This document shows, in pieces, positions 3,596 through 63,092 of a DNA stretch of 64,000 nucleotides; position 1 is the first letter of the stretch; each line of letters starts with the position of its first letter. The notes beneath the pieces were generated by a model. That model was not told where the DNA came from and did no database searches. It saw only the letters and a list, made by a program, of their open reading frames with translations. Both the position numbers and the translations under genes were made by a program. Origin of the DNA: Gekko japonicus (taxonomy: Eukaryota); assembly GCF_001447785.1 (NCBI RefSeq), contig NW_015172007.1:366638-430637 (forward strand). The letters are read 5' to 3'.

Positions 3596-4435
3596 AAATA
3601 AGTGCCTAAATGAGTTCTACTTCCCCTCACAATGCAGTTAGAGCGAATTCATGGCTACAAGAGGCCAAAAAAATTGTGTGTATTTTATTAATGAAATAGA
3701 GTTAGGAACAAGTGTCAACTGGTAAGTAGGGTTGTCATTAAAATTCAGCCACCTTGTAAACTATTCTTTAGACAGACAAGATATAAATACAGAGAAACAA
3801 AGTTGGTACATTCATGTTCTGTCATTATACATTCTCTGAAATTCCAAGGCTGCATTCAGACATGACGACAAACTGCAATCAGACATGAACATAACTTGTT
3901 GATGTCCTTATGCATATCCCTTGCTTCACATGTAAAGCTTGATTTTTAAAAAGAAAACTTCTTGGTGGTTATCAAATCTAGTTCGCTGTGCTGCCCAACT
4001 GTTGTGAGCTACTCCATGTGTTTCCCAAATCCACTCTAGTTTGGTCTCAAGATGCAATCAAGTTTGGAAAAGTCTGGGGACAGTTGCCTTAAAATCTGTA
4101 GCTCTTAAAGCAACAGGTAAATCTTTTACAGACAGGCAGAGTGGGAGGTCTTTCCTGAGCATTCATCATGATTGGATCAGGAGAGGCAATGTGGAAAGTC
4201 CCTTCTCCTTCATCACAGTGGATTGGACTGTGGTGTTCTAATTGACTTGTCCTAATGACCACTAATTCACTATTGAGCTTCGGAGGCCTTTCCTGTCACA
4301 GGATAGGCATACATGATTCTGAACCTTCTTGTCCCATTTCCCTGGGCACTACACAATATGGAACAGCCCCAACTGAGAAGCCTTGAATCAAATGCCAGTT
4401 TACCATGAATTTGGAATGCAGCCACCTGAGCAAAG

Positions 4436-5825
4436 AGAACATAAGAGAAGACAATGTTGGATCAGTCCAACACTCTGTCACACAGTGGCCAAAAATACCA
4501 GGTGCCATCAGGAGGTCCACCAGTGGGGCCAGGACATTAGAAGCCCTCCAACTGTTGACACCCCCCCCCCAAGCACCAAGAATACAGAGCATCACTTGCC
4601 CCAGACTGAGAGTTCCTATCTATTCCTTGTGGCGGACCTCTGCTCCATATGTTTATCTAATTCCCTCTCGAAGCTGTCCATGCTTGTAGCCGCTGCCATC
4701 TTTTGTGGCAGTGAATTCCATGTGTTAATCACTCTTTGGGTGAAGAAGTACTTCCTTTTATCTGTTCTAACCTTACTGCTCGGCAATTTCATTGAGTGCC
4801 CACGAGTTCTTGTATTGTGAGAAAGGGAGAAAAGTACTTCTTTCTCTACCTGCTCTTTCCCATGCATAATCTTATAAACCTCGATCATGTCACCCCTCAG
4901 CTGTCATTTCTCCAAGCTAAAGAGCCCCAAGCGCTTTAACCTTTCTTCATAGGGAAAGTGTTCCAACCCTTTTATCATTCTAGTTGTCCTTTTCTGCACT
5001 TTTTCCAGTGCTATAATATCCTTTTTGAGGTGTGGTGACCAGAACCATACACAGTATTCCAAATGAGGTTGCACCATCGATTTATACAGGGGCATTATGA
5101 TATTGGCTGATTTGTTTTCAATTCCCTTCCTAATAATCCCCAGCATAGCATTGGCCTTTTTTATTGCAGTCGCACACTGTGTCAACATTTTCAGTGAGTT
5201 ATGCTACGACTCCAAGATCTCTCTCTTGGTCAGTCTCTGCCAGTTCAGACCCCATCAACGCGTATTTATAGTTAGGATTTTTGGCTCCAATGTGCATCAC
5301 TTTGCACTTGGCCACATTGAACCCCTTTTGCCACGTTGACACCCACTTGCCCATCCTCGACAGATCCCTTTGGAGTGCCTCACAATCCTCCCTGGTTCTC
5401 ACCACCGTGTACAACTTCGTATCATCCGCAAATTTAGCCACTTCACTGCTTACTCCCATCTCCAAATCATTAATGAACAAGTTAAAAAGCATTGGACCAA
5501 GTACTGATCCCTGCGGTACCCCACTGCTTACCACCTTCCACTGAGAAAATTGCCCATTTATACTCATTCTCTGTTTCCCATTAATTAGCCAGTTTTAGAT
5601 CCACAAAAGGACTTGTCCTTTTATCCCGTGACTATTGAGTTTACTTAGGAGCCTTTGAAGAGGAACTTTATCAAAAGCTTTCTGGAAGTCAAGGTAAACA
5701 ACATCTATTGGGTCCCCCTTGTCCACTTGTTTGTTCACTCCCTCAAAGAACATTAACAGGTTAGTGAGACAAGATCTTCCCTTACAGAACCCATGCTGAG
5801 TTTGCCTCAATAGTTTTTGTTCATG
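4436..5825 (-). mobile_element. 5'-truncated CR1 LINE (RT C-terminal half and 3'UTR), frameshifted, in the TGFBR3 last intron
   Basis: ORF pieces QHGFCKGRSCLTNL, GVPQGSVLGP, KFADDTKL and HLEYCVWFWSPHLKKD. One AACATAAG tail unit at ~4438. Closely similar to the copy at 54078-56625. Confidence 0.97.
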
Positions 5826-24494: not shown

Positions 24495-25295
24495 TCTATC
24501 GATCTAATTTATTACAGCAAGAGCCAGTAAAACAGTACAATTCTGATATAAGAAGGATTAAAACAGTAATAACATAGGAATAGTATAAAAACATTAACAA
24601 AGAAAATTAATAAAATTAGTAAAATAAAATAATGTTAAGAGAATCATACAATTTTTTCAGCAAAAATAAGTTTACATTTCCTAATAGCTAAGCAACAAAA
24701 TTTTGCCACAGCATAAGTCACTGAGCTCTGAACGTCTTCTAAGAGGAATTTACAAGGGACTTCTGGCCTAAAGTCAAGATAAGACTGCAGAGGACTAAAT
24801 CTAGACAGAAGGGATAGTATAAGATGGTCTCGTTCCTCCTGATAGAATCTGCAGAACAGGAGGACATGAGTAATTGATTCCACCATATTAGCCATGCATG
24901 GGCATATACATTCCTGCATTGGAACTCGAGTGAATTTACCTTGCAGTACAGCGGAAGGGAGTGCCTCAAAGTGGGCTCTGGAAAAGGCCCATCTATAGGG
25001 CTCATAGGTAATGTTAACTAAATAAGGGGCAGCAGTAAAATTAGGCCAAGATTTTATATTTCTGAAGTTCTTGGGTAGCAAAGCTTCTTCATTTTGTAAT
25101 TCAATATCACGAAGGCTCTGTGTGACAGCTGTTCTTGACTTGTATAGGCTTCCATAGAAGAGATCTTCTGGGAATAGGGCAATCTGATTTAACTGATTAA
25201 GAATTTGTGTGGACCAGGCAGGCTAAGGGTCCGAGGCTAAAAGGTAAGGTATTAAACCCTTTGGGCTGTAATGAATTTGTAGCCAGAGTCCTAAC
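24495..25295 (-). mobile_element. RTE-X-like LINE 3' fragment
   Basis: ORF 24644-25081 has the C-terminal Cys/His motif CICPC..VESITHVLLFCRFY, then an AT-rich 3'UTR with AATAAA and a (TAGA)-like tail. The clade call is tentative. Confidence 0.7.
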
Positions 25296-37680: not shown

Positions 37681-37898
37681 TAGGGCTGCCAACTCTGGGT
37701 TGGGAAATCCTGGAGATTTGGGGGATGGAGCCGGGGGAGGGCAGAGTTTGGGAAGGGAAGGGCCCTCGACGGGTTACAGAGCTTTAAAGTCCACCCTCCA
37801 AAGTAGTCGTTTTCTCCTGGTGGACTGATCTCTGTCACCTGGAGATCAGCTGTAATTCTGGGAGATCTCCAGATATCATCTGGAGTTTGGCAACCCTA
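37681..37898 (+). mobile_element. Blackjack-like MITE, abundant older family
   Basis: TAGGGCTGCCAA...TTGGCAACCCTA, 218 bp. Confidence 0.85.
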
Positions 37899-37989
37899 AC
37901 ATACTTCTTGTACCCAGTCCATTAGTGGCAACAGGGAAAGTGGGGGATGTGATGATGACTTCAGTGGGTGAGCAGGAATGTCTGGGAGT

Positions 37990-38621
37990 TGTTGTTGTTC
38001 AGTCACACAGTCGAGTCCGACTCTTCGCAACCCCATGGACCACAACACACCAGGCCCTCCTGTCTTCCGCCGTCCTCCAGAGTTTGCTTAATTTAATGTT
38101 CATTGTATCATTGTACCATCTCATCCTTTGCCATCCCATTCTTCTTTTACCTTCAATCTTTCCCAGCATCAGGGTCTTCTCCAGAGAGTGCTCCTTTCTC
38201 ATTTGGTGGCCAAAATATTTGAGCTTCAGCTTCGGTATCTGGCCTTCCAGGGAACAGTCAGGGTTGACTTCTTTTAGGATTGATTGATTTGATCTACTTG
38301 CAGTCTAAGGGACTCTCAAGAGTCTTCTCCAACACCATAACTCTAAAGCATCTATTCTTTGGCGCTTGGCCTTCCTTATGGTCCAGCTCTCGCAGCCTTA
38401 CATTACTACTGGGAATACCATTGCTTTGACCATACGGACTTTTGTTGGCAGGGTGATGTCTCTACTTTTTATTATGCTGTCCAGGTTTGCCATAGCTTTC
38501 CTCCCAAGGAGCAGGCGTCTTTTAATTTCATGGCTGCAATCACCATCTGCAGTGATCTTGAATCCCAGGAATGTGAAGTCTGTCACTGCTTCCATGACTT
38601 CCCCTTCTATTTGCCAAGGAG
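37990..38621 (-). mobile_element. BovB (RTE clade) LINE, 5'-truncated
   Basis: Encodes FLGFKITADGDCSHEIKRRLLLGRKAMANLDSIIKSRDITLPTKV and SLEKTLMLGKIEGKRRMG. (CAA)n tail and 11-bp TSD tgtctgggagt (37979-37989, 38622-38632). Confidence 0.95.
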
Positions 38622-39346
38622 TGTCTGGGAGTAAGCATGTTATATTGTTTCTGTGAATTTTGTCATGTCAGGCTTCAGCATGTGCACACAAGTCGTATGG
38701 TGCATAAATGTCCTTTCCTAACTGAATTATACAAAAATTGTGAGTGGAGAGGGAGGAAGGGAAGGGAGTGTGTGACCATGAGAAGCAGCTTCCCTGATAA
38801 ACCAAGGATTAGATCCAGGACAAGGATTATACAATAACTGCAAATCTTCCCTGCTCTCTCCTCCTACCAGCAGCCATTTCTGACCCTGGGAAAGTCACAA
38901 CAGTGAGGAGGGAGAAGGGGACAAAAATTGCTCTCTTCTTTCTCTTCTGTTGGTGGAGCTTTGCTGATGGAAGAGGGCAATTTGGCTTCCTCCTCCCCAC
39001 TGCACCCTCCCAAACCACATGACCATTACTTCATGTGGGTCCTATGACCCTTGGAATACATTTTCATTGAGTAAGAAATGGCTGCTTGGAGAAGACGTCA
39101 TCGGGGAAGATCTGTGCTGTGTGGCCCATATATTAGGCAGGCTTCCGCAACTGCCTAGGGAACCAGAGGGCGGGGATGCTGGGGCACCAAAAGGCTCCTG
39201 TGGGTGCAGGTAGGAGCCCCAAGCAGTGACCCTTGGCGCAAGTCCTGATGCCTGGGTTGCCCTGCTCACCACACCCACTTTCACTAGCAAAAGAGGGAGG
39301 GAGAAAGAGCAGGCAGCCACCAGATCCACTGCACTAGTAGATACCA

Positions 39347-39920: not shown

Positions 39921-41535
39921 CTAGTTGATACCACTCTCTCCAGCTTTGCAACAGGCAGGGCAGCTCTGGGCGTGGCGACTTGCCTGGCCTTCCTTCCCCT
40001 CTCTGCCCCCATGAAAGAGGGAGGAAAGGTAGGCAGCGGCCGGCTCAGCCACAGAGCACCACAAACCTTTGGGGCCGTACCTGGGCTTGCAGCAGTCATT
40101 GTCTTCCTCGACGGGATCATGGGATCCAACCTAAGGATTTATTGTGATGTCTCAGTGCAGCTCTAGTACTCTCAGGATGTCTTGAACCCAGATGCTGGAA
40201 AGATTCATGTACATTCGTTTCGAATCGCAGCTTTCAAGAGTCAAGGAATTTTTAATTTTAATAGTCAGTTGAGGAGCAGCGGCTCATTAATCTCTCTATT
40301 CCCCTTCTCTTCTTCCGCAAGCTCTAGTTGCAAAAGTATTGCTCACGGAAATGTTTAACGATGTTTCCTTCACTAAATAACACCATGAATTAGAATTAAA
40401 ATGAGGCAGTTTTATTATCGACGAAGGGTTGGTTTGGGGTTTTTGCACCAGCAGCTACAACGAAGGAACGGTTACTTTATGGGGAAATGATCTTTCTGTT
40501 GACACAACTGCTCCCCTCCTCCCTTTTTGGTTTTGTAATAATGTATTCGTATAAACCCTCTGTCTACATAAGGGGACAATATCTTGGATTTGACAAAGCC
40601 TTTGCGCTGTTATCTAGTCTGCTTCTACTTAGCATCTGGTGTAGATATAGTACCATGTGTTTGTCAAAACAAACATAATTTGTATAGGAGAATAAGTCTG
40701 CACAAGTATTAAATGTCATGCTGAAACTTAAACACTCCAAGGAACCGGAGGCACCAGCAAGGGGCTCTCAGGGCAAAGAGACATCTTTGTCTAGGGTAAA
40801 CTTAAATCAGCTGTGTTTTGTTGACTCTATTTCAAAACTAATTGTGTGTTCTGAGACTCCTAAGGCTTTGAATGATGAACTCTATGTCCCATGTTTTATA
40901 CCTATTTAATGCAGGCTGTTTTACACTTTTGAAAGCAAATGCTAAATCGATAGGGAAACAAAGATCCTAAATTTCAGCAATGTGTCTCAAGGGCTAGTGT
41001 CATTGGACGGACTCAGAAATTCCCTCAGAAAAATGCTGTGTTCTCTTGTCCAAAGGCTCGTTTTAACCTTAAATTAGGCTTTGGCCAACCAACCTAAGCA
41101 TCAGTTTCCCATATGGAAAATGGCCTAGCAAGCCATTATGGAGCTAAAAAAAATAATGTTCTTCTGCACAGTGTTAAAAGAACTTGTAAAAACTTAACCA
41201 TGCATGTGTAAAAAATGTTGTAAACATTTTTTAAAAATCCTAAACCAGGTGATAGTTTTAATCAGGCCAACTTCTGAGGAAGGCCAGTATGTCTTTCAAC
41301 TCTCCTTAGGAGGTCAATTTAGTGACAAGACTGAAGTATCATCTAGATTGCTCCATAAGCATTCTATTTAAACATGAATTTAATATGATTAATGACATGA
41401 CATTTTAAAACCAAGGCTATTTTGAACTATAGAGATACAGCAAATAGGGTTTCTTGCGCCCAGAGCCTCGCAAATTCTTAATCCACCAAAGTACTTTGAA
41501 TTTTGATGGCTCAGGACTGCTTCATGTGTTAAGGC

Positions 41536-42124
41536 TTCCCCATGCTCCCTTGATTTCCCCCCCCCCCAAGCCTCTATGGCTCTGTACATCTCTAATCTAA
41601 CAATCCCACTTTATTGGCGGGTTTTTATGCTAGCAAGATTCAATCTTTTCCCCTCAGCTGTTGTTTTAGGCAGAGATAGGGGTATCCCCTATAGGGACAG
41701 AACCTGCAATTGCCTCTATAATGAACCTGATTCAGTTGCTCATATCCTTCTACGTTGTCCTCAATATTCTACTATGCGTAGCTATCTGATTAGTCCCCAC
41801 TTACCTACCACAAGGAACCCGACTGACAATGACCTAAACATTTTACTGTCTGATATGTTTCCGGCAATTACTTTGTCTGTTGTCGAATTTTTAGCCTATG
41901 TTTGGAAGCTTAGGGTAAGGGCATATAAGTCTTAACCCCTTTGTATTTTTTAGAATTGCTATATTCTCAACTGAGTTTATTATTTCCGAGAAGTTAAAAA
42001 AAACGATTCCTTGGTGGCGCAGCTTGGTGTAATTTGTTATAATCTATTACTTCGTTCTATTTATTTTCTATTTGTTTTATTGTCCTCTTTGCTGCTGTGT
42101 TATGCCAATAAAGGTCTATGTATG
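41536..42124 (+). mobile_element. RTE-X-like LINE 3' fragment
   Basis: RVFMLARFNLFPSAV..RTCNC..DSVAHILLRCPQY, aataaagg plus a (TATG) tail, and an 11-bp TSD tgtgttaaggc (41525-41535, 42125-42135). Confidence 0.85.
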
Positions 42125-52923: not shown

Positions 52924-53262
52924 TAGGGTTGCCAAGTAAAAAAACCTTACTGGCGGGGGAACCTCGCTGGGCTCCGGGAGCTCTCTCTGGATGCACGTGC
53001 GCGCGCCGCCAGCTCGTCACCAGAAGTGACGCGCGACATTGACCACGTTGAGGGCGTGGCCACAATCGTCGGAGGGAAAACCATAGTTTTCCCTCCGACG
53101 ATCCGGGCCATGCCCCCAACGTGGTCAATGTGCTTGCGTCACCTCTGGTGACGCAGCCACGCTGTGCTTCAGGGGGTGGAGTTCCCCCCGGGGCCCGATT
53201 CTGCAGCAGCGGAAATCGGGCCTCCAAAGCGGGGGTTTACCCACCCCCACTTGGCAGCCCTA
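52924..53262. mobile_element. Young CpG-rich hAT MITE
   Basis: TAGGGTTGCCAAG...CTTGGCAGCCCTA, TSD catacttc/cttacttc. Confidence 0.92.
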
Positions 53263-53604: not shown

Positions 53605-54077
53605 CCTGTAATACAAGTACACTCTGTACTGAAAAGTGCTACAGACTTCAGGTGAGGTCGCAGTAATCGATAGTACTTTTCAGAACACCCTTCCAAAGCC
53701 TATGGTTGATCCTGCATTAGTGTAAATAAGATGAGTAAATGCAGAAACTATCAAGGTTTGGTAAACAGCACTGTGTGTGTGTCAGGTGGTGTCTAATACT
53801 CTAAAAGGCCATTTTAAAAGGTTTTAGACATCTTCCTAAAAACTTGCAGTGTTGGGCTCTGTAAGGTGTCACCGGGTATCTAATTTCAGAGCATTATGGC
53901 CACCCCATGAACCATTTATAAGCGGATGGAATCATTGCAGTGCTTTTTTTCTAGAGGAACGCACCAGAACAGAGTTCCAGAACCTCTTTTACAAAATTAT
54001 TTTTAAAATGTTTAAATGTTCATGAGTTTTCAGTATACAGATAGAAAACTTCATTTCCCTCTTGAGAGTTCAGGTGT

Positions 54078-56625
54078 AACATAAGAACATAAGAACATAA
54101 GAACATAAGAACATAAGAACATAAGAACATAAGAACATAAGAACATAAGAGATGCCAATGTTGGATCAGGCCAAAGGCCCATCCAGTCCAACACTCTGTA
54201 TCCCACAGTGGCCAGAAATACCAGTGCCATCAGGAGGTCCACCAGTGGGGCCAGGACATTAGAAGCCCTCCCACTGTTGACCCCCCCCCAAGCACCAAGA
54301 TGACAGAGCATCACTTGCCCCAGAGTCCCTATCTATACCTTGTGGCTAATAGCCACTGATGGACCTCTGCTCCATATGCTTATCTAATTCCCTTTTGAAG
54401 CCGTCCATGCTTGTAGCTGCCACCACTTCCTGTGGCAGTGAATTCCAAGTGTTAATCACTCTTTGGGTGAAGAAGTACTTCCTTTTATCCGTTCTAACCC
54501 GACCGCTCAGCAATTTCATGGAGTGCCCACGGGTTCTTGTATTGTGAGAAAGGGAGAAAAGTACCTCTTTCTCTACCTGCTCTTTCCCATGCATAATCTT
54601 ATAAACCTCAATCATGTCACCCCTCAGTCGTCGTTTCTCCAAGCTAAAGAGCCCTAAGCGCCTTAACCGTTCCTCATAGGGAAAGTGTTCCAACCCTTTT
54701 ATCATTCGAGTTGCTCTTTTCTGCACTTTTTCCAAAGCTATAATATCCTTTTTAAGGTGTGGTGACCAGAATTGCACACAGTATTCCAGATGAGGTCGCA
54801 CCATTGATTTATATAGCGGCATTATGATATTGGCTGATCTGTTTACAATACCCTTCCTAATAATCCCCAGCATAGCATTGGCCTTCTTTATTGCAGTCAC
54901 ACACTGTCTCGACATTTTCAGTGAGTTATCTACTACAACTCCAAGATCTCTCTCTTGATCTGTCTCTGCCAGTTCAGACCCCATCAACGTGTATTTATAG
55001 TTAGGATTTTTGGCTCCAATGTGCATCACCTTGCACTTGGCCACATTGAACCCCATTTGCCATGTTGACGCCCACTCGCCCAACTTTGACAGATCCCTTT
55101 GGAGTGCCTCACAATCCTCACTGGTTTTCACCACCCTGAACAACTTCGTATCATCCGCAAATTTAGCCACTTCACTGCTTACTCCCAACTCCAAATCATT
55201 AATGAACAAGTTAAAAAGCAGTGGACCAAGTACTGATCCCTGTGGTACCCCACTGCTTACACCCCTCCACTGGGAGAACTGCCCATTTATACTCACTCTC
55301 TGTTTTCTATTAATTAGCCAGTTTTTGATCCATAAAAGGACTTGTCCTTTTATCCCATGATTTTTGAGCTTGCTTAGGAGCCTTTGATGAGGAACTTTAT
55401 CAAAAGCTTTCTGGAAGTCAAGGTAAACAATATCTATTGGATCCCCCTTGTCCACATGTTTGTTCACCCCCTCAAAGAACATTAACAGGTTAGTGAGACA
55501 AGATCTTCCCTTACAGAACCCATGTTGAGTCTGCCTCAATAGGTTTTGTTCATCTATGTGCCTACTAATTCTTTCCTTAATAATGGTTTCCACCAATTTA
55601 CCCGGTATCGACGTCAGACTGACAGGCCTGTAATTTCCCGGATCTCCTCTGGAACCCTTTTTAAAGATGGGAGTGACATTAGCTACCTTCCAGTCCTCAG
55701 GAATGGAGGCTGATTTTAAGGAGAGATTACATATTTTTGTCAGGAGATCCACAAGTTCACAATTGAGTTCTTTCAGAACTCTTGGATGTATGCCATCTGG
55801 GCCTGGTGATTTATCAGTTTTTAAGTTGTTTATCAGTTTTAGGACCTCCTCTCTCGTCACCTCAATCTGACTCAGGTCTTTCAACACCCCTCCCGAACTC
55901 AGCGGCTCTGGAGTGGGCAAGCACCTCTCATCTTCCACAGTGAAGACGGAGGCAAAAAATGCATTTAGCTTCTCAGCCATTTCCCTATCATCCTTCAGTA
56001 CTCCTTTTACCCCTTGGTCATCCAAGGGCCCCACTGCCTCCCTGGCTGGTTTCCTGTTTCTAATGTATTTGAAGAAAGTTTTATTGTTGGTCTTTACATT
56101 TTTTGCTATATGCTCCTCATATTCCCTTTTTGCCTGCCTGACCACAGACTTGCATTTTATTTGCCATAGCCTGTGTTCTGTTTTATCAGCCTCACTGTGA
56201 CTAGCTTTCCACCGCTTAAAGGAATCCTTTTTACCTTTTACAGCTTCCATTACTTTGTTTGTTAACCATGTAGGCTTTTTCTTATACCTGTTTGTGCCTT
56301 TCCTAACCTGCGGAATATATTTTTTTTGAGCTTCTAGAATTGTAGTTTTAAACAGTTTCCAAGCTTCCCCAATGGTTTTGACCCTTTCTACTTTTCCCTT
56401 CAGTTTCCTCCCCACATGTCCCCTCATATCAGAAAAATTACCCCTTTTAAAGTTAAAAGTGGTTGTGTGAGTCTTTTTGGCCAATTCTTTATTTGTACAA
56501 ATGTTGAACTCAACAACATTATGATCACTGTTCCCAAGCGGTGCAATCACTTTTACATCTCTCACCAGGTCTTGAGTGTTACTTAGGACCAAATCAAGGA
56601 TTGCCTCTCCCCTGGTAGGTTCCAG
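54078..56625 (-). mobile_element. Young 5'-truncated CR1 LINE
   Basis: Nine tandem AACATAAG tail units (54078-54149), a 3'UTR and an uninterrupted ORF2 portion. Confidence 0.98.
54346..56622 (-). CDS. CR1 ORF2 (end of APE endonuclease plus complete reverse transcriptase), N-terminally truncated
   Basis: Stop-free ~758 codons with EPTRGEAILDLVL..LGNSDH (APE C-terminus), KSPGPDG, NYRPVSLTS, YLDFQKAFDKV, GVPQGSVLGP and FADD. The first ~7 residues of the track ORF come from flanking DNA. Confidence 0.95.
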   Translation of the reverse strand, partial: EPTRGEAILDLVLSNTQDLVRDVKVIAPLGNSDHNVVEFNICTNKELAKKTHTTTFNFKRGNFSDMRGHVGRKLKGKVERVKTIGEAWKLFKTTILEAQKKYIPQVRKGTNRYKKKPTWLTNKVMEAVKGKKDSFKRWKASHSEADKTEHRLWQIKCKSVVRQAKREYEEHIAKNVKTNNKTFFKYIRNRKPAREAVGPLDDQGVKGVLKDDREMAEKLNAFFASVFTVEDERCLPTPEPLSSGGVLKDLSQIEVTREEVLKLINNLKTDKSPGPDGIHPRVLKELNCELVDLLTKICNLSLKSASIPEDWKVANVTPIFKKGSRGDPGNYRPVSLTSIPGKLVETIIKERISRHIDEQNLLRQTQHGFCKGRSCLTNLLMFFEGVNKHVDKGDPIDIVYLDFQKAFDKVPHQRLLSKLKNHGIKGQVLLWIKNWLINRKQRVSINGQFSQWRGVSSGVPQGSVLGPLLFNLFINDLELGVSSEVAKFADDTKLFRVVKTSEDCEALQRDLSKLGEWASTWQMGFNVAKCKVMHIGAKNPNYKYTLMGSELAETDQERDLGVVVDNSLKMSRQCVTAIKKANAMLGIIRKGIVNRSANIIMPLYKSMVRPHLEYCVQFWSPHLKKDIIALEKVQKRATRMIKGLEHFPYEERLRRLGLFSLEKRRLRGDMIEVYKIMHGKEQVEKEVLFSLSHNTRTRGHSMKLLSGRVRTDKRKYFFTQRVINTWNSLPQEVVAATSMDGFKRELDKHMEQRSISGY

Positions 56626-58086
56626 GGGACAGGCCAGATTCACCCCCTGGCCAGAGTAACCCCGGGGTTAACCCCCCAGGTCAGATTAACCCCCCCAGGC
56701 CTGCTTTCTGGGGCTGCTGCCCTGTCTCCCTTTTAAATTACTTCTTATCCCCAGCACCAGCAGGCCTCAGGGGTCAGATCAGGCCTGCCCAGCTCTTGGA
56801 GGAAGAGACTCTGTCCGGCCTAAGGCATGCCTGGAAAGACCAGACAGCTAGGAGAGTTATCCGGGGTTATTCTAGGCTAGGCCAGAGTAACCCTGGGGTT
56901 ACTCTGGCCGGGGGGGGGAACCGGCCTGTTACACCAGCACCCCTTACCCCCCCCCCACAAATCCATTGCTTAGTAGCATTCTTCCTAAGGCTGATCTTAA
57001 TGGGCAGCAGGAGAGACATGCTTGCTAAGAAATGCAGCAACCTGTCCATATAGAGGAAAAAATACAGTATTATAAAATATGCTTAGAAGACAATAGGACA
57101 TCTGTGCAGACACTGGGACACTGCTGTGTGCTTTTAATTAAGCTCCTGATGACTCAGTCCAAAGGAGGCAGGCAGGCTACCCTCCCTATTGTTTGTTAGA
57201 AGCTTCTAGACTTCTGTGACTAACAGAAAAAACCATCTCAGTCATGAAATTGGTATGTTAGACCCAACAAGCTGTGTCTCGAATATGAATCCTGTGCACA
57301 CAACCTACTGAACTGAAGTATGAGGAGAGAAGCATTCACAGAGCAGTTTGATATATCAGAGTATGAAAGCAATATGAAATAACTAACTACTGAATTAGTG
57401 TGTGTTTCCCTGCTGCAGTTAACTTTGCAAAACCGAGGACCATTTCACTGCATTATGTGGCCTTGGACAAGACATCTCCACAAGAAATATATATACTGAA
57501 AGTCATTAACAACCACTCTCTGCGTAATGTCCCTGAGCTGATAAATACTGTAATCAAATAATGATAAAAGCAAAGTACAGTTTGGTCTGCAGTACAAAGA
57601 ACTCTGGCATTCTACTTCAGAAAACATTCCATTCTGCCATTTCTTTTCATGGCCATCTAACATCTGTGTATCTTCTCACTGTGGCTTACTTATTTCAAAT
57701 GAGTTGATCAGGGTGTGAGTGGATAGTAAGGAAAGGAACAACTGCTAATTTTAACATTGTTGTGCAACTGAAGAGTAACCACCGTAGCACCTCAGCCAGC
57801 AGGTTGTTCTTGAGAAATGACAATGGCCAGGTGTGTGAAAAAAGAAGCCGCTTCAAGGCCATTTCACACCTGTTCCTGCTGTTGTTTTATGCCCTGGCTG
57901 CAGAGTAACACCTCCCAAACACCTGGGCCTTCAGCTTTCAGAATTCTTTCTTAAAATGGCCCCGTTCCCTTTAGTGGCTGCCCCAGGGAAAAACACACAC
58001 TTAGCTTTCTCTTAAACTATTAGAGTCGGTGCGTCCATTACGTTTTGACACATGTTCTGTTTGTTTTTTGCATGTATACTCTTGGC

Positions 58087-60427: not shown

Positions 60428-62714
60428 GTCTTCAGGGGCCTTCCAGGAGGGAAAAAAGCCCTGGAAAAGGCCCACTGCCAGATTGCTCTGGTGCTGGACC
60501 TTCCCTCCCTGGCCTCACATCCCCGCCCCCAGACCCCCGGAAGAGAGAAAGAGCCTGCTGAGCCAGCCCCATGCCTTGAGGGCACATTGCTCACGGCACT
60601 GAACGCGTGAGGCTGGGTGCCTCCCTCATCAGGCAGGGTGAGGCCAGGCTGAGCTCATCCTTCACCATGCTTGGCTAGCAAGGCCAGGCTGGAGGCATCC
60701 CTGGCGGGGAAGGGTTAGGCTAGGATGTACGTGTCCAGGCACCATCCTCAAAATCTCCAGGAATTTCCCAAGCTGGAATTGGCAACCCTACATGAGCATG
60801 ATGTTCACTTTTTCTTGTAATCTTTCTCTTTTCTTTTTCTTCTTCTTGAAATAAGATTTAGACATGGAGAAAAGATCTGTTTATGGCAATTAGCCATAAT
60901 TGCTCAATGGAACCTTTTGGTTTATAGGCAGCATGCCACAGAATAACAGATGTTGTGGCAAAATGCACCCTTACTTCCGAAAGCAGATGTCTGGCCACTT
61001 TTTGTCTGTTCCAGCAAGGCAATTCCTATGATCCCTTTTGGAAAGCAGCAGGGAAGCAAATCAGCGTTAGGTTTACATACAAGGAGGAGTTAATGGAGTC
61101 TGCTTTAATTTCCCTGTCAAGATTTTTTCAGATGTTATTAGGATTACGATTTCATCCTAACTATTGTTATAAAACCAAGAACCCAGTATGCTCTGCCTGA
61201 CTTTTTTTTTTTTTTGCTGCTGTCATTGGAAAATTAGTCCTCAAGTGATGGGACAGTCCATATGTGGTTGATTTGCCATTTATGATTGCTTTTTGTGTGA
61301 TTGTTTCCTGGATGAATGAATAAATTTTTTCTCATTAATTGATTGGCAGGCTGATTTGCTTAGACTTTAGAACCACATGCTGCTCTCGGAAGCAGTACGA
61401 GTGATTCAAGAATAGTTACTCCATTATGCTGGTCTTTTGGCGTAAATAAACTTCCCTTTGTTGTTTGGGTTCAAGGCAGTCAGGTCTGAAGAAGACTCTA
61501 GTTTTTAGGACATTATGCCTATATTTTAAGAGAACTGCCAGACTTGGGTAAAGGGGCTCATTTTGACTGTGGGGTTGTTTGTGTCTGTAAAACAATTAAA
61601 GTCATAAAATGGCTTAAATAAAAGCAGATGCTTTGGACATGAACAACAACATATTTGGAGATAAAAAATACTAGACTAGTACAGCATTGATGAGTAATGC
61701 AGGAATTTTATTTAGCATGTGTCCCAATATGTCTGGACAACTTGATAGGTTACTTATGGTTTCTCAGGCTCACACTACAAATGATGGCAACAGACCCATC
61801 TGTGTAAACCTGGGTGTGCCTCGGTCACATGTGGTGGAACTGGATGCTAAATTTTAGAGCAAAATGGACACACGTACTAACAACCCCCCCATCATGACCT
61901 GTAGCATATATAAGAGCAATGCAATATAGATGTAGACCTCTCCTAGTTTACCTGTAAAATGTTTATTTAACATTCAGATTTCTGGAGTCTAAAGAAAGCT
62001 TGTAGCAGCTCATCTCAATTGTGATGTTTAACAAAAACCCAACTGAAAATAAATGCATTGGTTTCATTACAGAATCTGAATGTTCTGACTGCAGATCTGT
62101 TGGCTCCCTTGGTTTGTACCACTGAACCATAAGTGTGCAAGGCACTTTATCACCTAGGGCTATCCTTTGAATTGAGGCAGTCTTTTTCATGTATATGATT
62201 TTAAGCATTTGTCATTATTTCATTGTAGAATTGCCATAAGTTTGGGCTGATGGTATTTAAGGGATCTTCCCATGGTCCCTGAGATTAGGGGAAAGATGTA
62301 AGCAGGTAGTGACGCAGCTCAATTCAAGCCTCTTGAACCAAGTAGCAGGCAGCACTGCCATACAGGAGAGGCATGTACAGGCATGATTTCATGCTCCTTT
62401 CCATGTGTGTCACAAATTCCTCCTCCCCATGCCTCTTGTGGCATAGTTTTGGTAGGTTGGCTGTGCATGGTATAAATTCCCTAATCCCCAAGAAACAGAG
62501 AAAGACTAGAGGGGACACAGGATTGAAACTGCTGATAACAGCTGTCATTGGCCATCATTCTCTGTGCTCACAGAGTGGTCTCACTCTAGGATTTGAATTC
62601 TCCTTGGTAAAACACCAATACACTTTGCACTGCAAGTGGAAAACCAATTTAATTTCAGTCTGAAACTCCCAGGTAGGACTACAATGGTGTGTGACTCTTC
62701 TTCCGTTTCTCTGG

Positions 62715-63092
62715 TTGTGTGTATTAAAGTGCCATCAAGTCTCTTCTGTCTTCTGGCGACCTTACAGATTAATGACCTCCCAAATGTTCTCTTGCTAACA
62801 GCCTTGCTCAGGTCTTGCAAAACGAGGGCCATTTCCTCCTTTATTGAACCTATCCATCTTGTGTTGGGTCTTCCTCTTTTCCTGCTACCTTCAACATTTC
62901 TTAGCATCATAGTCTTTTCCAGTGAGTCTCATCTTCTCATGATGGGACCAAAGTACGATAACCTCAATTAAGTCATTTAACTTCTAGGGAGAGTTCAGGC
63001 TTGATTTGATCTAGAATCTACTTAGTTGTCTTTTTTTTTACAGTCCACGGTATCCATAAAACTCTCCCCCAACACCACATTTCAAATGAACT
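62715..63092 (-). mobile_element. RTE/BovB-related LINE 3' fragment (second family)
   Basis: Encodes MMLRNVEGSRKRGRPNTRWIGSIKE..RRQKRLDGT with an (ACAC)-like tail. Confidence 0.85.

What the first reader, a model, noticed from the sequence alone, without database searches (positions are those of the whole stretch)
54071..56937. Hidden Ginger1-like DNA transposon split by the CR1, itself inserted in a hAT MITE
Seen: deleting the CR1 rejoins TGTAAC (54075-54080) to AGGCCAGATT.. (56631). This gives a ~310-bp element with ~45-bp TIRs, TGT..ACA ends and internal GAGTAACCCCGGGGTTA palindromes (30-bp palindrome at 56880-56909). The flanks CAGG and CCAG are each one change from CCGG, and the empty site reads gagagtt-CCGG-cacccc, like the host's own gagttccagaacctc repeat. 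Established, as I recall it: Ginger1 transposons use a Gypsy-like integrase and have TGT..ACA TIRs and CCGG/CCGT 4-bp TSDs. They are mainly described from invertebrates, while amniotes keep the domesticated GIN genes. Inference: a non-autonomous Ginger-type family was mobile in this reptile lineage, implying an autonomous element or a GIN-related integrase able to move it. This is my best candidate for something undescribed.
Basis: partly seen in the sequence, partly recalled or inferred. Interest (0 to 1): 0.7.

Follow-up and report, generated by a model that had tools for sequence, protein, structure and literature searches.

The report
Recently mobile Ginger1 transposon in reptile
This is a short copy of a young jumping-gene family, with hundreds of copies that insert mostly at the letters CCGG and a matching retrovirus-like integrase gene in the same genome (likely a reptile's), which matters because the papers found report only relics and tamed genes of this kind of transposon in land vertebrates.

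Summary
Confirmed and extended. Without the CR1 the window holds a 309-bp element with TGT..ACA ends, sitting in the CCGG site of a hAT-like MITE. The genome has 396 exact CCGG+end matches (reversed control 0). The flank is a true 4-bp target duplication: CCGC and GCGG targets are copied on both sides. Longer copies with the same ends carry a single-exon transposase: HHCC finger, D145/D204/E240, GPY motif and OTU domain, no reverse transcriptase. That is the OTU type of Ginger1. One copy (L096) holds the N-terminal and OTU parts in order, with one stop and two assembly gaps; no fully intact copy was seen. The best-matching coding copies lie about 0.5% from their majority and MITE copies 1.6%, so the burst is recent. 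A GIN gene is not needed as the mover. Four other coded organisms hold the gene at about 90-98% in short pieces; skink and frog gene models hold fragments. The papers found report only relics and domesticated genes in amniotes; Repbase and Dfam could not be checked. The scan's earlier notes hold nothing like this sequence. New member of a known superfamily in an unreported host and age; horizontal origin and present activity are untested.

The parts
53938..54074 (+). Left part of a ~165-bp hAT-like MITE (CAGGGC..GCCCTG ends, 8-bp target duplication in other copies); the oldest layer
   Evidence: 40 of 1278 candidates scored, 88-94% identity; hAT label from end type and 8-bp duplication (recalled criteria), no hAT transposase looked for
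54071..54074 (+). Left copy of the 4-bp target (CAGG, one change from CCGG)
54075..54081 (+). First 7 bases of the Ginger1 element (TGTAACA)
   Evidence: identical to the start of intact copies
54082..56624 (-). 5'-truncated CR1 LINE, 8-bp tail repeats at 54078-54150, open ORF2 frame with RVT_1; 99.4-99.8% identical to other copies; the youngest layer
56625..56631 (+). CR1 5' junction: four G absent from the family copies printed, then ACA repeating element bases 5-7
56631..56933 (+). Rest of the 309-bp non-autonomous Ginger1 element: left inverted repeat, subfamily-specific middle, right inverted repeat ending TTACA
56880..56909 (.). 30-bp palindrome in the right subterminal region (GGCCAGAGTAACCC arms), a likely transposase-binding repeat
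   Evidence: 6 matches in the window against 0.4 expected; binding role is inference
56934..56937 (+). Right copy of the 4-bp target (CCAG, CpG decay of CCGG)
56938..56970 (+). Degraded right remnant of the hAT-like MITE
   Evidence: begins CACCCC like the family's CACCTC; terminal repeat not recognisable

Best explanation
The element is a non-autonomous copy of a young Ginger1 DNA transposon family, flanked by a decayed CCGG duplication and split by a CR1, and it was likely cut out and pasted by the Gypsy-like integrase that longer copies with the same ends encode. Shown: shared ends, 4-bp target duplication, single-exon HHCC-DDE-GPY-OTU gene in long copies, young age, nesting order hAT-like MITE, then Ginger1, then CR1. 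Inferred: the transposase binds the GAGTAACCCC subterminal repeats, frees the CA-3' ends, and joins them to a 4-nt staggered cut in a W-N-CCGG-N-W site that host repair fills in; rare complete copies supplied the enzyme in trans to hundreds of deletion derivatives; because CCGG is scarce in a methylated genome, insertions fall into young CpG-rich repeats such as this MITE and a SINE. The excision step itself was not observed.
For: 396 exact CCGG+TGTAACAGGCCGG matches, reversed control 0. Of the first 100 listed of 620 ends chosen without regard to the 4-bp flank (base -6 not G), 76 have CCGG, 7 CCAG/CTGG, 5 CCGC/GCGG, 3 CAGG, 9 other (counted by eye). Of 42 distinct two-ended copies from 77 loci, 13 have CCGG on both sides, 23 CCGG or CpG-decay forms on both sides, 0 an exact 5- or 6-bp duplication. 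Off-type targets are copied on both sides: CCGC twice, GCGG twice. L037 and some 20 near-identical copies carry the C-terminal integrase, GPY and OTU (Pfam OTU E 7e-12). L096 has CCGG on both sides and H74/H82/C112/C115, D145, D204, E240 (Pfam Integrase_H2C2 E 8e-20, rve E 9e-11), collinear with OTU pieces. Inside four long copies a Gypsy polyprotein matches only by its integrase part. The N-terminal protein groups with single-ORF integrase+OTU proteins (100/99 with three unnamed ones, 99/94 in a clade with Nucella, Oopsacas and Homarus proteins), away from the genome's Gypsy integrases at 29-39% identity. Bao et al. 2010 define Ginger1 by these features.
Against: No fully intact transposase gene was seen in this assembly: L096 has one stop and two N gaps, L097 lacks the catalytic core, L213 is rearranged, L031 is mostly N. 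Only 5 of 149 scored matches hold the N-terminal part at high identity. No excision footprint or insertion polymorphism was tested. The middle of the window element (about bases 90-213) is not found in the sequenced parts of L096, L097 or L037. One copy has a 5-bp duplication (L216). The one-sided CAGG flank is more common than its mirror CCTG (14 against 2), which plain post-insertion mutation does not explain. No described Ginger1 or GIN1/GIN2 sequence could be put in the tree.
Confidence: 0.94

Rival explanations
1. The element is a solo LTR or fragment of a Gypsy/ERV retroelement whose integrase prefers CCGG.
For: TG..CA ends, a 4-bp duplication and a Gypsy-type integrase are shared with LTR elements; the genome has many Gypsy integrases.
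Against: The ends are inverted repeats (47 and 49 of the first 50 bases in L097 and L213; 18-19 of the first 19 in four long copies); no RT or RNase H match inside long copies; the protein begins at its own ATG and ends in OTU; Gypsy integrases of this genome are only 29-39% identical.
Confidence: 0.01
2. The short elements were moved by a domesticated host GIN1/GIN2 protein or by another, unseen transposase and not by the OTU-type transposase found here.
For: GIN1 and GIN2 derive from Ginger1 and occur in lizards (PMC2836005); no intact family transposase was seen in the assembly.
Against: The family's own gene lies between identical ends with CCGG duplications; a contig of run X1 covers the first 237 codons with no stop. 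GIN genes are multi-intron host genes from a Ginger1-5_HM-like (Ulp1) element. GIN1/GIN2 of this genome were not retrieved, so this was not tested directly.
Confidence: 0.03
3. The element moves like piggyBac, carrying a fixed CCGG overhang from the donor site into the target, so CCGG is partly the element's own.
For: One-sided CAGG flanks facing CCGG or a near form in several pairs, 14 against 2 for the mirror change (binomial p 0.004); piggyBac behaviour is recalled, not read.
Against: All four clean off-type targets (CCGC, GCGG) are copied on both sides, as fill-in of a staggered cut predicts; conversion from the family's internal ccagg|TGT junctions or templating by the nearby CAGG in the end could give the same bias.
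Confidence: 0.05

Closest known systems
Ginger1, OTU type (Ginger1-1,-2,-3,-11_HM of Hydra, Ginger1-1_AC of Aplysia; Bao, Kapitonov, Jurka 2010, PMC2836005, parts 1-3 of 5 read)
   Same: TGTNR ends, inverted repeats of about 45-100 bp, 4-bp CCGG duplication in about three quarters of ends, single transposase of about 640 aa with HHCC, DDE, GPY and OTU, total length about 4-4.6 kb.
   Different: Vertebrate host; no intron seen in the sequenced parts (the Hydra and Aplysia OTU families have 1-2); second target class CCGC/GCGG where Hydra has CCGT/ACGG; several hundred copies dominated by MITEs and deletion derivatives; repeated, composite ends. No sequence comparison with the named families was possible (their alignment files could not be read).
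Ginger1 relics in alligator, turtle, coelacanth and frog (Frith 2022, PMC9004415, passages read)
   Same: Ginger1-derived DNA in sarcopterygian genomes.
   Different: Those are reported as protein relics; here copies are 0.5-2% from their majority with intact ends and target duplications.
GIN1 and GIN2 domesticated genes (PMC2836005; PMC3424704, passages read)
   Same: Ginger1-type integrase in an amniote genome.
   Different: GIN genes are single host genes with 6-8 introns; this is a multicopy, single-exon, OTU-bearing element between inverted repeats. Not compared by sequence.
Ginger2/TDD
   Same: TGTNR ends, 4-5 bp duplication, HHCC and DDE.
   Different: Ginger2 targets AT-rich RTATAY and lacks GPY/F; this family targets CCGG and has GPY.

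Membership tests
Ginger1 | Termini 5'-TGTNR | tested here: met
   TGTAA..TTACA in the window and in most copies
Ginger1 | Terminal inverted repeats of about 40-270 bp | tested here: met
   39 of 45 in the window; 47 and 49 of the first 50 in L097 and L213; only 19 bp remain at the right end of L096
Ginger1 | 4-bp CCGG (or CCGT/ACGG) target duplication | tested here: met
   76 of 100 ends CCGG; 13 of 42 pairs exact, 0 of 42 with 5-6 bp; minor class CCGC/GCGG; one 5-bp case
Ginger1 | H2C2 zinc finger and DDE core of Gypsy-integrase type | tested here: met
   Pfam Integrase_H2C2 and rve on P0157; D145, D204, E240; one stop in this copy
Ginger1 | GPY/F motif | tested here: met
   GPY at residue 161 of P0001
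Ginger1 | YPYY motif upstream of the zinc finger | tested here: inconclusive
   YP at 20-21 followed by F39, F46, Y54 in P0157; the published alignment could not be read
Ginger1 | C-terminal OTU or Ulp1 domain | tested here: met
   Pfam OTU E 7e-12, above cutoff
Ginger1 | Single 500-800 aa transposase, no reverse transcriptase | tested here: inconclusive
   Pieces collinear with 640-663 aa relatives and no RT match, but no gap-free complete copy in this assembly
Ginger1 | Phylogenetic placement with named Ginger1 families | not testable with these tools
   Tree groups it with integrase+OTU proteins, apart from Gypsy, but no named Repbase Ginger1 sequence was available
Ginger2/TDD | AT-rich RTATAY target and no GPY/F | tested here: not met
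   CCGG target and GPY present
LTR retrotransposon / solo LTR | Direct terminal repeats around gag-pol | tested here: not met
   Inverted ends, integrase-only match
hAT MITE (host element) | 8-bp target duplication and CAG..CTG ends | tested here: met
   9 of 14 scorable copies with at most one mismatch; not recognisable in the window copy
hAT MITE (host element) | Link to a hAT transposase | not tested
   no search made

The most novel reading that the evidence does not exclude
An OTU-type Ginger1 transposon entered reptiles (and frogs) by horizontal transfer from an aquatic animal and is still active in this lineage, giving the first living CCGG-specific, retrovirus-type integrase that works as a cut-and-paste transposase in an amniote.
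Probability: 0.25. Interest if true: 0.75.

Novelty: new member of a known kind. Interest (0 to 1): 0.52.

Why it matters
Ginger1 is the DNA transposon closest to Gypsy and retroviral integrases, and how such an enzyme cuts an element out was stated to be unknown (PMC2836005). In amniotes the papers found report only relics and the tamed GIN genes. A family that moved recently in an amniote genome shows that Ginger1 worked in these animals long after GIN1 arose, and offers a vertebrate-adapted system for testing the excision step, the role of the OTU domain, and whether methylation of the CpG in CCGG steers insertion. A CCGG-specific integrase could also be a useful tool. The caveat is that automated repeat libraries may already hold this family under a Ginger label.

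Tried and rejected
Pairing exact ends 1.3-6.3 kb apart (17 regions): one was mostly N (L031), three were tandem arrays of end sequence, several held simple repeats; three held the C-terminal gene part and none the catalytic core. Search for GIN1/GIN2 with the N-terminal protein: not found among 149 scored matches in the genome nor among 79 longer proteins; this is a sensitivity limit, not absence. Selection test: 21 best-matching coding copies show 20 synonymous, 96 non-synonymous and 3 stop changes, pN/pS 1.38, so the abundant GPY+OTU derivative is not a domesticated gene. Test for purifying selection between organisms: among listed differences of run X12 absent from X1, 7 non-synonymous and 4 synonymous codons; among those shared by at least two of X12, X13, X16, 6 and 2 (the table behind it hid 77 rows), so no sign of selection and no support for horizontal transfer. 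Fixed-overhang model: weakened. Literature searches that found no young reptile Ginger1; 'Ginger' has 0 hits in 12 of 13 supplementary files of the squamate repeat survey PMC6050309; in PMC9498476 and PMC8303610 the hit was an author's name. PMC12863088, PMC6839031, PMC10045372, PMC5753468: passages only; PMC10045372 counts 23 autonomous Ginger1 entries in Repbase in 2022 without hosts in the passages seen. Marin 2010 on GIN transposons was not read. Earlier scan notes: none on this sequence or genome; 8 of 42 Ginger notes were shown and concern other hosts.
Full report
Observation. The window reads TGTAAC at 54075-54080, then a minus-strand CR1, then AGGCCAGATT from 56631 to TTACA at 56933. 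Without the CR1 this is 309 bp, with 39 of the first 45 bases matching the reverse complement of the right end and a perfect 14+14 palindrome at 56880-56909. The subterminal 14-mer occurs 6 times in the window, 5 of them in the element, against 0.4 expected. The CR1 has an open ORF2 frame with an RVT_1 domain, is 99.4-99.8% identical to 11 other copies over their main alignments, and is 5'-truncated at 56623/56624. The host is a ~165-bp repeat with CAGGGC..GCCCTG ends; 9 of 14 scorable copies (19 fetched) have an 8-bp duplication, and 13 of 19 read CCGG, CTGG or CCAG at the insertion point. The nesting order is therefore hAT-like MITE, Ginger1, CR1.

The family. The 303-bp right part found 653 candidates, 40 scored, the best at 88-97%. 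The exact 16-base end occurs 1481 times, internal repeats of the end included; 620 lack G at base -6, which removes the internal junctions, so there are several hundred copies. CCGG plus the first 13 bases occurs 396 times, reversed control 0. Of the first 100 of those 620 ends, 76 have CCGG, 5 CCAG, 2 CTGG, 5 CCGC/GCGG, 3 CAGG, 1 CCTG and 8 others (counted by eye). Of 77 loci chosen by internal sequence, 42 distinct ones showed two ends: 13 CCGG on both sides, 23 CCGG or CpG-decay forms on both sides, none with an exact 5- or 6-bp duplication; some of the rest are internal junctions because the outer end lay beyond the fetched stretch. Among 20 regions picked for off-type flanks, CCGC is copied on both sides twice and GCGG twice, one copy has a 5-bp GAGGG duplication, and most others with both ends in view pair an off-type flank with CCGG or a near form. 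So the flank is a true target duplication. Two bases out from CCGG the target is A or T in 107 of 122 ends, and 37 of 160 distinct ends lie in one SINE-like context (this set includes loci chosen by flank patterns and is biased).

The transposase. Pairing exact ends gave L037, a 2.8-kb copy with CCGG on both sides and an open frame holding the C-terminal integrase, GPY and an OTU domain. That protein matches 104 places in the genome. Its database relatives are single ~640-aa proteins with H2C2, rve and OTU domains: unnamed ones at 63-73%, Nucella and Oopsacas at 48%, and pieces caught in gene models of the skink Lerista edwardsae (62% over 170 aa) and the frog Anomaloglossus baeobatrachus (73% over 154 aa). 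One of them (P0003) found the missing N-terminal part in two copies. L096 (G000:C13996) spans 3.9 kb between CCGG duplications and holds an ATG, the HHCC finger, D145, D204 and E240, one stop at codon 207, two N gaps and OTU pieces in order. L097 joins the N-terminal and C-terminal parts across a deletion of the core; L213 (4.6 kb) is rearranged. A Gypsy polyprotein matches four long copies only by its integrase part. The window element shares both ends and its first ~90 bases with the long copies; its middle is confined to its own subfamily among the loci held. In a 41-row tree the protein sits with three unnamed integrase+OTU proteins (100/99), inside a clade with Nucella, Oopsacas and Homarus proteins (99/94), apart from the genome's Gypsy integrases; deeper branches are weak and two plant Gypsy rows fall near the Ginger-like group.

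Age and activity. The 21 best-matching coding copies lie on average 0.49% from their column majority (pairwise 0.92%), with pN/pS 1.38, as expected for neutral decay after a recent burst; they were chosen by similarity, so older copies are under-counted. Thirty MITE copies lie 1.6% from their majority, the window copy 3 of 173 bases. In public data, 20 of 24 listed runs hold part of the N-terminal gene, the best at 0.49 of the words. A contig of run X1 covers the first 237 codons with 15 differences from L096 and no stop, and most or all depth in four DNA runs reads a sense codon where L096 has its stop (mixed in X17), so that stop is not the family's rule. X1 also holds the common deletion joint. 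Runs of four other coded organisms hold the gene as short pieces at about 90-98%; two (X12, X16) show the element's end next to many different flanks and none shows that joint, so the family spread there separately. Which animals they are is not known. Two of three RNA runs of one study have low depth over the catalytic region (0-13 per bin, both mate directions), the third almost none; this is weak evidence and may be read-through.

How it likely works. Shown: common ends, 4-bp duplication, the gene's anatomy, age and nesting. Inferred from integrase chemistry (own knowledge): the enzyme binds the subterminal repeats, frees the CA-3' ends and inserts them at a 4-nt staggered cut that the host fills in; rare complete copies moved the many short ones in trans. 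The excision step was not observed, and Bao et al. state that it is unknown for Ginger1. One oddity remains: CAGG next to the end occurs 14 times and its strand mirror CCTG twice (p 0.004). The window's left flank is of this kind. Conversion from the family's internal ccagg|TGT junctions or local templating are the likelier causes; carry-over of donor flank is not excluded but fits badly with the doubled off-type targets.

What is known. Bao et al. 2010 (PMC2836005, parts 1-3 of 5 read; alignment files unreadable) define Ginger1 from hydra, sea slug, lancelet and aphid by 40-270-bp inverted repeats, TGTNR ends, CCGG (75%) or CCGT/ACGG (24%) duplications and an integrase with OTU or Ulp1. All testable defining features are met; the YPYY motif and a gap-free complete gene are inconclusive. 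[quoted passage not shown] Eight searches and 12 of 13 supplements of a squamate repeat survey gave no young reptile family. Repbase, Dfam, most subscription journals and unread supplements may hold one.

Verdict. A real, young Ginger1 family with its own transposase gene in what is likely a reptile: a new member of a known superfamily, in a host group and age class not found in print here. Horizontal origin is plausible, since the nearest named full-length relatives are marine invertebrates at 62-68% over the N-terminal part, but it is untested, and relics in other tetrapods allow vertical descent. Interest 0.52.

Noticed in passing
window 53015-53153: A long hairpin: 46-nt arms at 89% with a 4-nt loop, inside 18-nt arms at 94% (I1 and I9); probably a separate palindromic repeat element.
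   Followed up: no
L035 355-3115, L039 474-2967, L041 327-1869, L217, L211: Near-perfect tandem arrays (units of 123, 58, 135, 59 and 194 bp, up to about 44 copies) made of the Ginger1 end sequence and bounded by normal ends: transposon-born minisatellites, or assembly artefacts of palindromic DNA.
   Followed up: partly
G000, pattern counts (L168-L183): CAGG beside the element's end is found 14 times, its strand mirror CCTG twice; unexplained.
   Followed up: partly
L216 72-1516: One copy has a 5-bp duplication (GAGGG) at a non-CCGG site.
   Followed up: no
many loci, e.g. L025, L065, L097: 37 of 160 distinct ends lie in the same SINE-like motif around its CCGG (SINE label recalled).
   Followed up: partly
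L037 1642-2886 and some 20 like it: The commonest coding derivative keeps an open GPY+OTU frame with the catalytic-type DGNC and HFD motifs but no DDE core; it evolves neutrally.
   Followed up: yes
P0029, P0032, P0186, P0109, P0125: Public gene models of a frog, a skink and a toad have Ginger-like pieces joined to host genes, and two fish proteins named 'gypsy retrotransposon integrase-like' group with the toad piece in a separate Ginger-like clade.
   Followed up: partly
G000, one search list: A young Gypsy-type family with dozens of equally scoring integrase copies and open frames up to about 1900 aa.
   Followed up: no
window 4377-5594, 24644-25222, 37856-38656, 41507-41935, 62581-62971: Further LINE-like fragments: a second CR1 piece and frames that look like L2 and RTE/BovB ends (labels recalled, not tested).
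   Followed up: no
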